Below are positions 29,616 through 29,750 of a stretch of DNA of 64,000 nt, in pieces. Positions within the stretch are counted from its first letter, which is position 1, and the number at the start of each line of letters is the position of its first letter. Under the pieces are notes generated by a model. The model saw only the letters and a program-made list of their open reading frames with translations, was not told the DNA's origin and ran no database searches. The translations under genes were made by a program, and so were the position numbers. The DNA comes from an uncultured Acidobacteriota bacterium (GTDB lineage Bacteria > Acidobacteriota > Vicinamibacteria > Vicinamibacterales > UBA2999): assembly GCA_963723005.1 (NCBI GenBank), contig CAVRPA010000004.1, forward strand, positions 13,053 through 77,052. The letters are read 5' to 3'.

Positions 29616-29750
29616 CTCCCGACTCCCGACTCCCTAGACTCCCGACTCCCGACTCCCGACTCCCGACTCCCGACTCCCGACTCCCGACTCCCGACTCCCG
29701 ACTCCCGACTCCCGGCTCCCGCAGCCCCAAGCCCCAAGCCCCAAGACCAC
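29616..29750. repeat. 7-nt array (CTCCCGA) x15, followed by (GCCCCAA) x3
   Basis: 15 units counted from 29616 to 29722, with one 2-nt irregularity at 29637-29638, then agccccaagccccaagccccaagaccac. It lies between two co-directional minus-strand cytochrome genes. Confidence 0.95.

What the first reader, a model, noticed from the sequence alone, without database searches (positions are those of the whole stretch)
29616..29750. Fifteen CTCCCGA units between two cytochrome cistrons would place a long G3N4 tract in the mRNA
The array lies between the stop of the nine-haem cytochrome gene (29763) and the start of the monohaem cytochrome c gene (29541), both on the minus strand. A shared transcript would therefore carry (UCGGGAG)15, which is GGG tracts separated by 4-nt loops. 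That is the canonical G3+N1-7 quadruplex pattern repeated far beyond the four tracts needed. Most other units in the family are also a C3/G3 (or C4/G4) run plus 3-4 nt: CCCAAGA, GATCCCC, CCCTGAT, GGGTTCT. This gives a single rule that would explain the odd 7-nt period. CCGGAYA, TGCCGTC and GGCTCTA have only two-base runs and do not fit. Alternative readings include C-rich Rho-utilisation sites, spacing-variable promoters, or protein-binding iterons.
Basis: partly seen in the sequence, partly recalled or inferred. Interest (0 to 1): 0.7.

Follow-up and report, generated by a model that had tools for sequence, protein, structure and literature searches.

The report
Variable seven-base repeat between cytochrome genes
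The 15-unit CTCCCGA array is real, but it is one fast-changing member of a known and still unexplained class of seven-base repeats between bacterial genes; it could form a G-quadruplex in the mRNA, yet nothing shows that this is why it is there.

Summary
Window 29616-29721 holds 15 CTCCCGA units (12 perfect, 3 variant). An (AGCCCCA)3.3 array follows at 29723-29745. Both lie between a nine-haem cytochrome gene and a monohaem cytochrome c gene on the minus strand. A shared mRNA would carry 18 G3-4 tracts spaced 7 nt apart.

The array is not a special element. The window comes from an uncultured Acidobacteriota genome and holds about 25 period-7 arrays and almost none of any other period. The same unit forms arrays in many phyla.

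The class is known: G-rich heptamer repeats in Xanthomonas and Nostoc (Rehm 2015) and heptamer repeats across prokaryotes generally (Mori 2018). Its function is unknown.

The array is not conserved. The closest relative has about 3.5 units, other relatives carry different units, and one has a 43-nt spacer. Only 4 of 9 orthologous spacers keep a canonical G4 motif. All 9 stay G-rich and C-poor on the sense strand.

G3/C3-containing arrays follow a strong orientation rule: the G-rich strand reads away from the nearest gene (84:12). This array obeys it.

The G4 reading is therefore only partly supported. The potential is real but moderate (G4Hunter 1.23). G4 does not explain the 7-nt period, and a G4-based function is untested.

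The parts
29616..29721 (-). Heptamer array: (CTCCCGA)15 on the + strand, which is (TCGGGAG)15 on the gene (minus) strand. It has 12 perfect units and 3 variants (CTCCCTAGA, CTCCCGG, CTCCCGC).
   Evidence: TRF gives period 7, 15.0 copies, 95% matches, score 189. Exact unit count. 13 matches against 0.08 expected. G4Hunter 1.23 on the minus strand. The + strand is 57% C and 15% G.
29723..29745 (-). Adjacent second array: (AGCCCCA)3.3 on the + strand, (TGGGGCT)3 on the gene strand. It starts 17 nt after the stop codon of the upstream gene and has the highest local G4Hunter score.
   Evidence: TRF 100% matches. Maximum 25-nt G4Hunter of 2.16 falls here. Related GGCTTGG-type units occupy this position in relatives L001, L002, L003, L206 and L207.
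29763..31040 (-). Nine-haem c-type cytochrome gene with a C-terminal membrane anchor, last large gene of a Rieske / cytochrome b / multihaem c cluster. The 5' end is approximate. In the window it is read in three frames (apparent indels).
   Evidence: ORFs and CXXCH motifs. Pfam multihaem families. Intact 425-aa ortholog with 9 CXXCH in L207. Frame plot shows three frames. 7 gap openings over 603 nt against L003.
29194..29535 (-). Monohaem cytochrome c gene (113 aa from ATG 29535; the longest ORF starts at GTG 29541). GGAG Shine-Dalgarno at 29544-29541.
   Evidence: ORF. Pfam Cytochrom_C at 1.4e-13. 113-aa database protein P0001 at 100% identity. Sequence read directly.
29536..29615 (-). Non-repetitive 80-nt leader between the array and the cytochrome c start. 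It is conserved with L001 and partly with L206 and L002.
   Evidence: Sequences. No sigma-70-like promoter and no terminator-like site found.
29091..29173 (.). Inverted pair of heptamer arrays, (GGTCTTR)n then (CYCAAGM)n, between the convergent patatin-like gene and the cytochrome c gene. It forms a long hairpin that starts right after the cytochrome c stop codon. It belongs to the same repeat family and shows what a paired version looks like.
   Evidence: Arms of 39 nt, 82% complementary, 5-nt gap. RNA fold -74.1 kcal/mol, z = -9.07.
37980..38018 (+). Second array of the same unit in the opposite orientation: (GGAGTCG)5.6 on the + strand.
   Evidence: TRF.
62832..62852 (+). Third, short array of the same unit, (CCGACTC)3, followed by (CAAGACC)5 at 62867-62902, upstream of a + strand gene.
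   Evidence: TRF; pattern match.

Best explanation
The array is an expanded, rapidly changing member of a genome-wide family of heptanucleotide simple-sequence repeats found between genes. The family fills many intergenic spacers of this Acidobacteriota lineage and occurs in many other phyla.

How it most likely works:
(1) Shown: units are gained, lost and replaced quickly. Orthologous spacers differ in unit type and number.
(2) Inferred: the mechanism of that turnover is replication or repair slippage (slipped-strand mispairing).
(3) Shown: arrays whose unit has a G3/C3 run sit next to gene ends, with the G-rich strand reading 5'->3' away from the gene. Here the G-rich strand is therefore the sense strand, starting 17 nt after the stop codon of the nine-haem cytochrome gene.
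(4) Inferred: the array is transcribed as the trailer of the multihaem cistron, within the spacer before cytochrome c. It has no complementary partner, so it stays single-stranded G-rich, C-poor RNA that can fold into moderately stable G-quadruplexes.
(5) Inferred, weakest step: its effect, if any, is quantitative and acts at the transcript boundary, through pausing, 3'-end formation, processing or decay between the two cistrons. It is not a fixed regulatory switch. The number 15 itself is not under selection. The feature kept at this locus is a G-rich, C-poor sense strand, not a G4 motif.
For: Family membership:
- Period 7 is almost the only tandem period in the window, with 11 strict arrays against 0-1 for periods 4-12 and about 25 arrays by TRF.
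- The same holds in 118 loci from other genomes that carry the unit.
- (CTCCCGA)3 or longer occurs in at least 120 places in species genomes of Acidobacteriota, Cyanobacteria, Lysobacterales/Xanthomonas, Gemmatimonadales, Planctomycetota, Verrucomicrobiota, Bacteroidota and others.
- In soil metagenome contigs it reaches 100-400 times the depth of its flanks, and in metatranscriptome contigs up to about 1,500 times.

Turnover at this locus (sense strand):
- Window: (TGGGGCT)3(CGGGAGT)15.
- L001 (94.5% nt identity, identical cytochrome c): at least (GGCTTGR)4.5 then (TCGGGAG)3.5.
- L005: (GGGTTCT) at 4 or more copies.
- L002: (GTCTTGR)5(GGCTTGG)2.
- L003: (GGCTTGR)5.
- L206: (GGCTTGR)6 ... (GGTCTTG)8.
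- L127: (GTCTTGG)4.
- L207: a 43-nt spacer with three degenerate units.
- L211-216: no arrays.

Orientation rule:
- Downstream of stop codons, G-rich-on-sense arrays lie a median 13 nt away and C-rich ones 83 nt away (Mann-Whitney p = 3e-8). Within 20 nt of the stop the count is 26 G-rich to 3 C-rich.
- The G-rich strand reads away from the nearest gene in 84 of 96 arrays with G3/C3 units (starts 26:4, stops 58:8). For units without a run the count is 28 of 46.
- Where both types share a spacer, the order is G then C in 18 cases and C then G in 2.
- Rehm et al. 2015 reported the same positional rule for Xanthomonas and Nostoc.

No hairpin partner: the spacer folds worse than its shuffles (-88.2 against -95.3 kcal/mol, z = +1.75).

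G4 capacity: and Rehm's CD data on the analogue.

Boundary role: in Xanthomonas RNA-seq, transcripts start or stop in G4-capable repeats more often than in control repeats.

All nine orthologous spacers are 39-49% G and 18-24% C on the sense strand.
Against: - No transcript data exist for this organism. The RNA runs found hold only unstranded contigs from many loci. Co-transcription and any boundary effect are therefore inferred.
- The orientation rule was measured with home-made gene calls. Arrays from the same locus are not independent.
- The rule is symmetric for starts and stops. A simple trailer or 3'-end role does not explain that.
- A preferred vocabulary of units recurs at unlinked loci and across phyla. 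CAAGACC occurs 4 times, CTCCCGA 3 times, and CGGCAGA and CCGGACA twice each in the window. Random slippage alone does not predict this. It hints at sequence-specific selection or a copying mechanism that I could not identify.
- The 7-nt period itself is unexplained.
Confidence: 0.6

Rival explanations
1. The array is a functional RNA G-quadruplex element in a polycistronic mRNA. Its G3N4 tracts fold into one or more rG4s that control translation, stability or processing of the downstream cytochrome c cistron. G4 formation is the reason the heptamer family exists.
For: - There are 18 consecutive G3-4 tracts at 7-nt spacing and 4 canonical motifs.
- G4Hunter is 1.23-1.35, with a maximum of 2.16, and the RNAfold -g minimum-energy fold contains G4s.
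- The DNA analogue (GGGAATC)3GGG is a K+-dependent G4 with T1/2 of 50.4 C.
- G3/C3 runs are enriched among units.
- Only run-containing units obey the orientation rule.
- The spacer lacks ordinary secondary structure that would compete.
Against: - Only period 7 occurs, although G4 allows periods 4-10.
- 40-45% of arrays lack G3/C3 runs yet have the same period and the same 4-5 copy mode.
- C-rich-on-sense arrays outnumber G-rich ones 31:16 between co-directional genes.
- The canonical motif is present in only 4 of 9 orthologous spacers, and copy number runs from 3.5 to 15.
- Every unit keeps a C in the loop, which lowers G4 propensity.
- The modelled gain is about 4 kcal/mol.
- In the one heptamer repeat studied genetically (H. 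influenzae hmw), the hairpin mattered and the predicted G4 did not.
Confidence: 0.15
2. Orientation-specific Rho-utilisation site. The + strand RNA, which is antisense to the cytochrome genes, reads (CUCCCGA)15. This is an unstructured C-rich, G-poor stretch that would load Rho and stop antisense or read-through transcription from entering the multihaem gene. The G-rich sense strand would keep the untranslated spacer of the operon safe from Rho-dependent polarity.
For: - The + strand of the array is 57% C and 15% G over 106 nt.
- The convergent patatin-like gene could send read-through transcripts this way.
- All nine orthologous spacers are C-poor on the sense strand, even those without arrays.
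- The class-wide rule amounts to saying that RNA entering a gene is C-rich and RNA leaving it is G-rich.
Against: - Cyanobacteria are among the richest in such arrays, and from my own recollection they lack Rho. I did not check this here.
- C-rich arrays sit 5-20 nt before start codons on legitimate mRNAs.
- A strong hairpin already lies between the patatin-like gene and cytochrome c.
- Nothing in Rho biology predicts a 7-nt period.
Confidence: 0.1
3. Phase-variable expression switch. The array lies in or just upstream of a separate cytochrome c promoter or 5' UTR. Changes in copy number alter promoter spacing or leader structure, as with the 7-nt repeats upstream of H. influenzae hmw1/hmw2.
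For: - Copy number differs between the closest relatives (about 3.5 against 15).
- The cytochrome c gene is inverted relative to the multihaem gene in another lineage (L211-216), so it can be an independent transcription unit.
- There is functional precedent for a heptamer repeat acting through 5'-UTR structure.
Against: - Arrays occur in a large share of spacers next to housekeeping genes, not next to surface or contingency genes (same conclusion in Rehm 2015).
- No promoter-like site was found, although that scan only covers sigma-70 consensus.
- The array has no pairing partner to build an hmw-like hairpin.
- The array hugs the upstream stop codon (17-41 nt) rather than the downstream start (80 nt).
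Confidence: 0.07
4. Tandem binding sites (iteron-like) for a sequence-specific DNA- or RNA-binding protein that recognises a small vocabulary of heptamers.
For: - The same few units recur at unlinked loci in the window and on both strands.
- The identical unit recurs across phyla.
- The copy-number mode of 4-5 is the same whether or not the unit has a G run.
- MacGregor 2015 proposed S1, Csp or CsrA-type binders for TAACTGA heptamers.
Against: - Many different units exist: 67 distinct units among 169 arrays in high-GC loci.
- Units are replaced by unrelated ones at the same position in close relatives.
- No candidate protein was identified, and none could be tested here.
Confidence: 0.05
5. 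The length of the array is an artefact of an error-prone long-read assembly.
For: - The window shows many frame changes inside conserved genes, namely cytochrome b, the multihaem cytochrome and the patatin-like gene.
- No read or contig spans the array.
Against: - Indel errors change single bases, not ten perfect 7-nt units in a row.
- Arrays of 12-24 copies of the same unit exist in independent genomes.
- The short-read contig L001 confirms the same unit at the same site.
Confidence: 0.03

Closest known systems
G-rich heptameric repeats GGGAATC (Xanthomonas) and GGGGA(C/T)T (Nostoc PCC 7120), Rehm et al. 2015, PLoS One (PMC4692102)
   Same: - 7-nt unit made of a G3-4 tract plus 3-4 nt, with a single C in the loop. 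GGGAGTC differs from GGGAATC by one base.
- Dispersed through intergenic regions.
- 2 to 26 copies, most often about 4.
- Extensive length and sequence variation between close relatives at the same spacer.
- Some arrays occur as convergent inverted pairs.
- The G-rich strand lies within 50 nt after stop codons on the coding strand, or before starts on the non-coding strand.
- Next to housekeeping genes.
- Function unknown.
   Different: - Different phylum (Acidobacteriota) and a different unit.
- Here many unit types coexist in one genome, including units with no G3 run.
- G4 folding of this unit has not been measured.
Tandem heptamer repeats as the most abundant intergenic periodic repeat across prokaryotes (Mori et al. 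2018, SPADE, PMC6344855). Rehm 2015 also cites earlier notice of heptamer excess by Mrazek and colleagues.
   Same: Intergenic repeats with a specific 7-nt period in many phyla. [quoted passage not shown]
   Different: That work is a survey. It gives no unit-level, orientation or locus-level analysis.
TAACTGA direct repeats of Beggiatoaceae, Cyanobacteria and Bacteroidetes (MacGregor 2015, PMC4679880)
   Same: An identical heptamer repeated in intergenic regions of distantly related phyla. It is often just upstream of start codons and has 2 to 43 copies.
   Different: That unit is AT-rich with no G tract, and one unit dominates. The proposed role is binding of a translational regulator in 5' leaders. 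The array studied here follows a stop codon.
Heptamer repeat (ATCTTTC)n in the 5' UTR of Haemophilus influenzae hmw1/hmw2 (NAR 2025, PMC12721329)
   Same: A 7-nt unit, 11 or more copies, transcribed, with copy number changing quickly. It is the only heptamer repeat with a tested mechanism.
   Different: The hmw repeat pairs with a G-rich non-repeat arm to form an RNase III-cleaved hairpin upstream of an adhesin gene, and it is a contingency locus. The array here has no partner, follows a stop codon, and belongs to a genome-wide family.
Cyanobacterial STRR heptanucleotide repeats (from my own recollection, not checked here)
   Same: Heptanucleotide tandem repeats dispersed in non-coding DNA. 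The CCCCAGT type equals Rehm's GGGGACT.
   Different: Described in heterocystous cyanobacteria. No functional assignment that I know of.

Membership tests
G-rich intergenic heptamer repeats (Rehm 2015 type) | Tandem array of 7-nt units, each with a G3-4 tract, at least 2 units | tested here: met
   15 + 3.3 units, period 7, with GGG or GGGG in every unit on the minus strand.
G-rich intergenic heptamer repeats (Rehm 2015 type) | Intergenic and dispersed genome-wide, with over-representation of period 7 | tested here: met
   About 25 period-7 arrays in 64 kb, and almost no other period. Arrays lie outside stretches with a coding signal.
G-rich intergenic heptamer repeats (Rehm 2015 type) | [quoted passage not shown] | tested here: met
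   The composite array starts 17 nt after the stop codon, and the CTCCCGA part 41 nt after it. Class-wide counts are 84:12.
G-rich intergenic heptamer repeats (Rehm 2015 type) | Length and sequence variation between close relatives at the same spacer | tested here: met
   Nine orthologous spacers compared.
G-rich intergenic heptamer repeats (Rehm 2015 type) | K+-dependent G4 folding of the repeat oligonucleotide in vitro | not testable with these tools
   Only in-silico scores are available: G4Hunter 1.23-1.35 and RNAfold -g.
Conserved regulatory RNA G-quadruplex | At least four G3 tracts with loops of 1-7 nt on the transcribed strand | tested here: met
   20 tracts and 4 non-overlapping motifs. 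Transcription itself was not shown.
Conserved regulatory RNA G-quadruplex | The motif is kept in orthologous positions of relatives | tested here: not met
   A canonical motif is present in 4 of 9 orthologous spacers. Three of those four are cut by a contig end.
Phase-variable contingency-locus repeat | Copy number polymorphic between strains | tested here: met
   About 3.5 units in L001 against 15 in the window.
Phase-variable contingency-locus repeat | Restricted to a few surface, virulence or restriction genes, where it switches expression | tested here: not met
   Arrays occur in many spacers next to respiratory and housekeeping genes. The effect on expression was not testable.
Rho-utilisation site on the operon mRNA | C-rich, G-poor, unstructured RNA of about 60-80 nt on the transcript | tested here: not met
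   The sense-strand spacer is 48% G and 18% C. Only the antisense RNA would be C-rich, at 57% C and 15% G.
Intrinsic terminator or REP-like stabilising hairpin | Two complementary arms forming a stable stem | tested here: not met
   No complementary arm within the spacer. The fold is weaker than shuffles, z = +1.75. No terminator-like site. By contrast the array pair at 29091-29173 does meet this feature.
Known RNA families (Rfam 15) | Match at gathering score | tested here: not met
   0 matches in the whole window.

The most novel reading that the evidence does not exclude
G-tract heptamer arrays may be a general, orientation-dependent gene-boundary signal shared by many bacterial phyla. The G-rich strand always reads out of the adjacent gene, at starts as well as stops. 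RNA leaving a gene would then carry G tracts and RNA entering it would carry C tracts. The arrays would act as one-way transcript-end or insulator elements, through G4, R-loop or an unknown heptamer-binding factor. Copy number would tune the strength of the signal. The array studied here would be a strong 'exit' signal between the bc-complex genes and cytochrome c.
Probability: 0.15. Interest if true: 0.75.

Novelty: new member of a known kind. Interest (0 to 1): 0.38.

Why it matters
Heptamer tandem repeats are the commonest periodic repeat between bacterial genes, and their function has been unknown for decades. This array adds little on its own. It extends the G-rich heptamer class to soil Acidobacteriota and shows very fast turnover at one well-defined spacer in a respiratory gene cluster.

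The comparative work around it gives three usable constraints on any explanation of the class:
- The 7-nt period is independent of G tracts.
- The strong orientation rule applies to units with G3/C3 runs and is symmetric for gene starts and stops.
- The 4-5 copy mode is not specific to G4-capable units.

If the arrays prove to be transcript-boundary signals, they would matter for operon prediction and expression modelling in several large, poorly studied phyla. They are also a practical nuisance, because short-read assemblies break at them and long-read assemblies may miscount them.

Tried and rejected
- Copy number from public data. Soil and sediment metagenome contigs pile up on the array from many unrelated loci, and none spans it with both flanks. 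This gave no verification.
- Transcription. Metatranscriptome runs hold the unit at high depth, but only as unstranded contigs from other loci. An attempt with a Xanthomonas locus that carries the same unit found only low-share contig runs. Neither was usable.
- Rfam on the whole window gave no match.
- Promoter and terminator consensus scan of 28900-30000 found nothing. The scan has limited value for Acidobacteria.
- Hairpin-half hypothesis. I searched for a complementary C-rich arm for the array. There is none in the spacer. Composite G-then-C arrays elsewhere in the window with non-complementary units also do not fold better than shuffles. Pairing is therefore not the general basis of the G-first order.
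- 'Preference for four units means G4.' Rejected, because units without G runs show the same mode.
- Metagenome scan for orthologous loci. 79 of 80 loci were more distant cytochrome c paralogues in other contexts and had no arrays. Only L127 was syntenic.
- 'Stops in all three frames' idea. A 7-nt unit that contains a stop codon would seal all frames. Rejected as a general explanation because TCGGGAG and GGGAATC contain no stop in any frame (by inspection).
- Coding potential of the array. ORFs run through it on both strands, but the region lacks the codon-position GC signal.
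Full report
**What is there**

The + strand of window 29616-29721 reads (CTCCCGA)15. TRF gives period 7, 15.0 copies, 95% matches and score 189. Twelve units are perfect, in runs of 2 and 10. The three variants are CTCCCTAGA, CTCCCGG and CTCCCGC. 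A second array, (AGCCCCA)3.3, follows at 29723-29745. The two-unit pattern occurs 13 times in the window against 0.08 expected from shuffles.

Both flanking genes are on the minus strand. The upstream gene stops at 29763-29765. It is the last large gene of a Rieske / cytochrome b / multihaem cytochrome cluster. Eight CXXCH motifs are intact in the window. The intact 425-aa ortholog in L207 has nine, so 'nine-haem' is correct.

The downstream gene is a monohaem cytochrome c (Pfam Cytochrom_C, 1.4e-13). Its longest ORF starts at GTG 29541. That codon overlaps the GGAG Shine-Dalgarno, and the database protein is 113 aa, so ATG 29535 is the likely start.

On the gene strand the spacer reads: stop, 17 nt, (TGGGGCT)3, (CGGGAGT)15, 80 nt, ATG. 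It has 20 G3+ tracts and four non-overlapping canonical G4 motifs.

One caveat applies. The window shows many frame changes inside conserved genes (cytochrome b, the multihaem gene, the patatin-like gene). These look like indel errors of a long-read assembly. No public read or contig spans the array. The number 15 therefore rests on this assembly alone.

**Where it comes from, and the family**

The cytochrome c protein's named relatives are from Acidobacteriota MAGs. The window is 67% G+C. Runs that hold the sequence are soil and freshwater-sediment metagenomes.

The array is one of about 25 period-7 arrays in the 64-kb window. A strict scan finds 11 arrays of period 7 and 0-1 for each other period from 4 to 12. 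A few units recur at unlinked places and on both strands:
- CAAGACC at 25562, 29138, 40192 and 62867.
- CTCCCGA at 29616, at 37980 on the other strand, and at 62832.
- CGGCAGA at 24162 and, on the other strand, at 38540.
- CCGGACA at 6164 and 34572.

The hits include Acidobacteriota (Vicinamibacterales, Thermoanaerobaculia, Blastocatellia, Luteitalea), many Cyanobacteria, Xanthomonas/Luteimonas/Lysobacterales, Gemmatimonadales, Phycisphaerales, Verrucomicrobiota, Bacteroidota, Chloroflexales and others. In those loci period 7 is again almost the only tandem period: 133 and 183 arrays, against 0-14 for any other period. Contigs carrying the unit pile up on the array at 100-400 times the depth of the flanks in soil metagenomes. 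In metatranscriptomes the ratio reaches about 1,500.

**What is already known**

Rehm et al. 2015 (PMC4692102) described GGGAATC repeats in Xanthomonas and GGGGA(C/T)T repeats in Nostoc. Their findings were:
- The repeats are intergenic, with 2-26 units and most often four.
- They vary between close relatives.
- Some form convergent inverted pairs.
[quoted passage not shown] - The repeats are transcribed, and transcripts start or stop in G4-capable repeats more often than in control repeats.
- No function was found.

Mori et al. [quoted passage not shown] MacGregor 2015 (PMC4679880) described TAACTGA heptamers shared by distant phyla.

The only heptamer repeat with a tested mechanism is the one in the H. 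influenzae hmw 5' UTR. There the repeat pairs with a G-rich arm into an RNase III-cleaved hairpin, and the predicted G4 was dispensable (PMC12721329).

The finding is therefore a new member of a known but unexplained kind.

**Conservation at this locus**

I collected the orthologous spacer, from the multihaem stop to the cytochrome c start, in relatives. Arrays on the sense strand are:

| Locus | Relation to the window | Arrays in the spacer |
|---|---|---|
| window | - | (TGGGGCT)3 (CGGGAGT)15 |
| L001 | 94.5% nt identity over 1 kb, identical cytochrome c | at least (GGCTTGR)4.5 then (TCGGGAG)3.5 |
| L005 | 90% aa | (GGGTTCT) at 4 or more copies |
| L002 | 85% aa | (GTCTTGR)5 (GGCTTGG)2 |
| L003 | same protein as L002 | (GGCTTGR)5 |
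| L206 | 82% aa | (GGCTTGR)6 ... (GGTCTTG)8 |
| L207 | 79% aa | 43-nt spacer with three degenerate GGCYYGG units |
| L127 | 75% aa | (GTCTTGG)4 starting inside the stop codon |
| L211-216 | 72% aa | no arrays; cytochrome c gene inverted relative to the multihaem gene |

The TCGGGAG array is thus recent and specific to the window's species, and it differs four-fold in length from its nearest relative. The 3.5-unit version in L001 is shorter than the usual short-read assembly word sizes. It is therefore probably real rather than a collapsed repeat; this is inference.

A canonical G4 motif is present in only 4 of the 9 spacers. All 9 are G-rich (39-49%) and C-poor (18-24%) on the sense strand, with 0-1 C3 tracts.

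**Testing the G4 rule against the family**

(a) Period. G3N1-7 permits periods 4-10, but only 7 is seen. G4 therefore does not explain the period.

(b) Units. G3/C3 runs are enriched: 60% against 27% +/- 11% for shuffled units in the window, and 55% against 33% +/- 4% in high-GC loci. Even so, 40-45% of arrays lack them.

(c) Copy number. The mode is 4-5 for units with runs and 4 for units without runs. 'Four units' is therefore not a G4 signature. Fifteen copies is in the upper tail.

(d) Strand. Between co-directional genes, 31 arrays are C-rich on the sense strand and 16 are G-rich. 'G in the mRNA' is not a general rule.

(e) Position and orientation. Downstream of stop codons, G-rich-on-sense arrays lie a median 13 nt from the stop (IQR 0.5-31). 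C-rich ones lie a median 83 nt away (IQR 55-110). The Mann-Whitney p is 3e-8, and within 20 nt of the stop the count is 26 to 3.

Arrays nearest a start codon are C-rich on the sense strand 26 to 3. Put symmetrically, the G-rich strand reads 5'->3' away from the nearest gene, whether the boundary is a start or a stop:
- For units with G3/C3 runs this holds in 84 of 96 arrays (p = 2e-14; starts 26:4, stops 58:8).
- For units without runs it holds in 28 of 46 (p = 0.18).
- The difference between the two groups has Fisher p = 7e-4.
- Where both kinds share a spacer, the order on the top strand is G then C in 18 cases and C then G in 2.

The array studied here obeys the rule. The rule's restriction to run-containing units is the best evidence that G (or C) tracts themselves matter. 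It does not say that G4 is the structure involved, nor that RNA rather than DNA is the level.

(f) Structure. The spacer folds worse than its shuffles (-88.2 against -95.3 kcal/mol, z = +1.75), and no complementary arm exists. With the G-quadruplex option the minimum-energy fold contains two G4s, but gains only about 4 kcal/mol. G4Hunter is 1.23 for the array, just above the usual 1.2 threshold.

By contrast, the inverted array pair just after the cytochrome c stop (29091-29173) is a very strong hairpin (-74.1 kcal/mol, z = -9.07). G-then-C composites with non-complementary units at 40105-40250 and 56825-57005 are not hairpins (z = -1.9 and -1.1). Pairing is therefore not the general basis of the orientation rule.

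**Most likely explanation**

The array is an expanded, hypervariable heptamer repeat of this family.

Shown:
- Family membership.
- Fast turnover at the locus.
- The orientation and position rule.
- Absence of a pairing partner.
- Formal G4 capacity.

Inferred:
- Slippage as the generator of the array.
- Transcription as the trailer of the multihaem cistron. The genes share a strand, the spacer is as short as 43 nt in a relative, and no terminator was found. However, the cytochrome c gene is inverted in another lineage, so it can stand alone.
- A quantitative effect at the transcript boundary rather than a fixed switch. This rests on the Xanthomonas transcript-end data.

The length of 15 is probably not selected. 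What is kept at this locus is a G-rich, C-poor sense strand. I give this composite reading about 0.6.

**Rivals**

- An orientation-specific Rho site on the antisense RNA, which is 57% C and 15% G, with a Rho-proof sense strand: 0.1. This is weakened by the abundance of arrays in cyanobacteria, which to my recollection lack Rho (not checked here).
- A phase-variable promoter or leader for cytochrome c: 0.07.
- Protein-binding iterons: 0.05.
- An assembly artefact: 0.03.

**Unexplained**

- The 7-nt period.
- The small shared vocabulary of units, within the genome and across phyla.
- Why the orientation rule is symmetric for starts and stops.

**Limits**

Gene boundaries in the comparative statistics come from my own codon-position and ORF heuristics. 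Arrays within a locus are not independent. The loci were ascertained by the CTCCCGA unit. No experiment or stranded transcript data were available.

**Verdict**

The array is a new member of a known kind. The single locus is of moderate-to-low interest. The unsolved class it belongs to is of higher interest.

Noticed in passing
window 29763-32800 and 27912-29100: Conserved genes change reading frame internally: cytochrome b, the nine-haem cytochrome (three frames) and the patatin-like gene (two overlapping ORFs). Against relatives there are 12 gaps in 1372 nt (L002) and 7 gap openings in 603 nt (L003). This looks like indel errors of a long-read assembly rather than pseudogenes. L002 (record name 'contig_66766') shows similar gene fragmentation.
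   Followed up: partly
window 29091-29173: Inverted heptamer arrays between the convergent patatin-like and cytochrome c genes form a 39-nt-arm hairpin (-74.1 kcal/mol, z = -9). It starts right after the cytochrome c stop codon. Equivalent inverted arrays follow the cytochrome c gene in L002, L003, L004, L206 and L210.
   Followed up: partly
window 29100-29129 versus 29719-29748; loci L211-L216: The cytochrome c gene is flanked by inverted heptamer arrays that are 80% complementary and 589 nt apart. In a related lineage (72% aa identity) the same gene lies in the opposite orientation relative to the multihaem gene, and there are no arrays around it. Inversion through the flanking arrays is possible but untested.
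   Followed up: no
L006-L125: The exact unit CTCCCGA/GGGAGTC forms arrays of up to about 24 copies in many unrelated phyla. Neighbouring arrays in those loci share further units such as ATTCCCG (the Xanthomonas GGGAATC) and ACTCCCT. The reason for a shared vocabulary across phyla is unknown.
   Followed up: partly
window and L001-L125, L127, L206: For heptamer units with a G3/C3 run, the G-rich strand reads away from the nearest gene at both starts and stops (84:12). Units without a run show no clear bias (28:18).
   Followed up: yes
window 37700-38670: About 1 kb has weak or no coding signal. It holds G-rich arrays (CTTGGGT, GGAGTCG at 37942-38018) on the left and C-rich arrays (CAAGACT, CTGCCGT, CCCAAGC at 38511-38608) on the right of a doubtful 150-aa minus-strand ORF (38024-38476).
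   Followed up: no
window 25486-25521, 40152-40192, 56864-56899: A few arrays have an 8-nt period: GAACCCTA, TCTCGGGT and GGGTTCTA. They look like heptamer units with one extra base, sit next to heptamer arrays, and are the only other period seen.
   Followed up: no
window 27912-29100 versus L002 4343-4475: The patatin-like phospholipase gene between the S9 peptidase and cytochrome c genes is present in the window and L206 but absent in L002. In L002 the peptidase gene is directly convergent with cytochrome c. The junctions carry heptamer arrays.
   Followed up: no
L001, L005, L206, L210 contig ends: Short-read contigs of relatives end inside or right at the heptamer arrays. The arrays appear to break short-read metagenome assemblies, which probably leads to their under-reporting in MAGs.
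   Followed up: no
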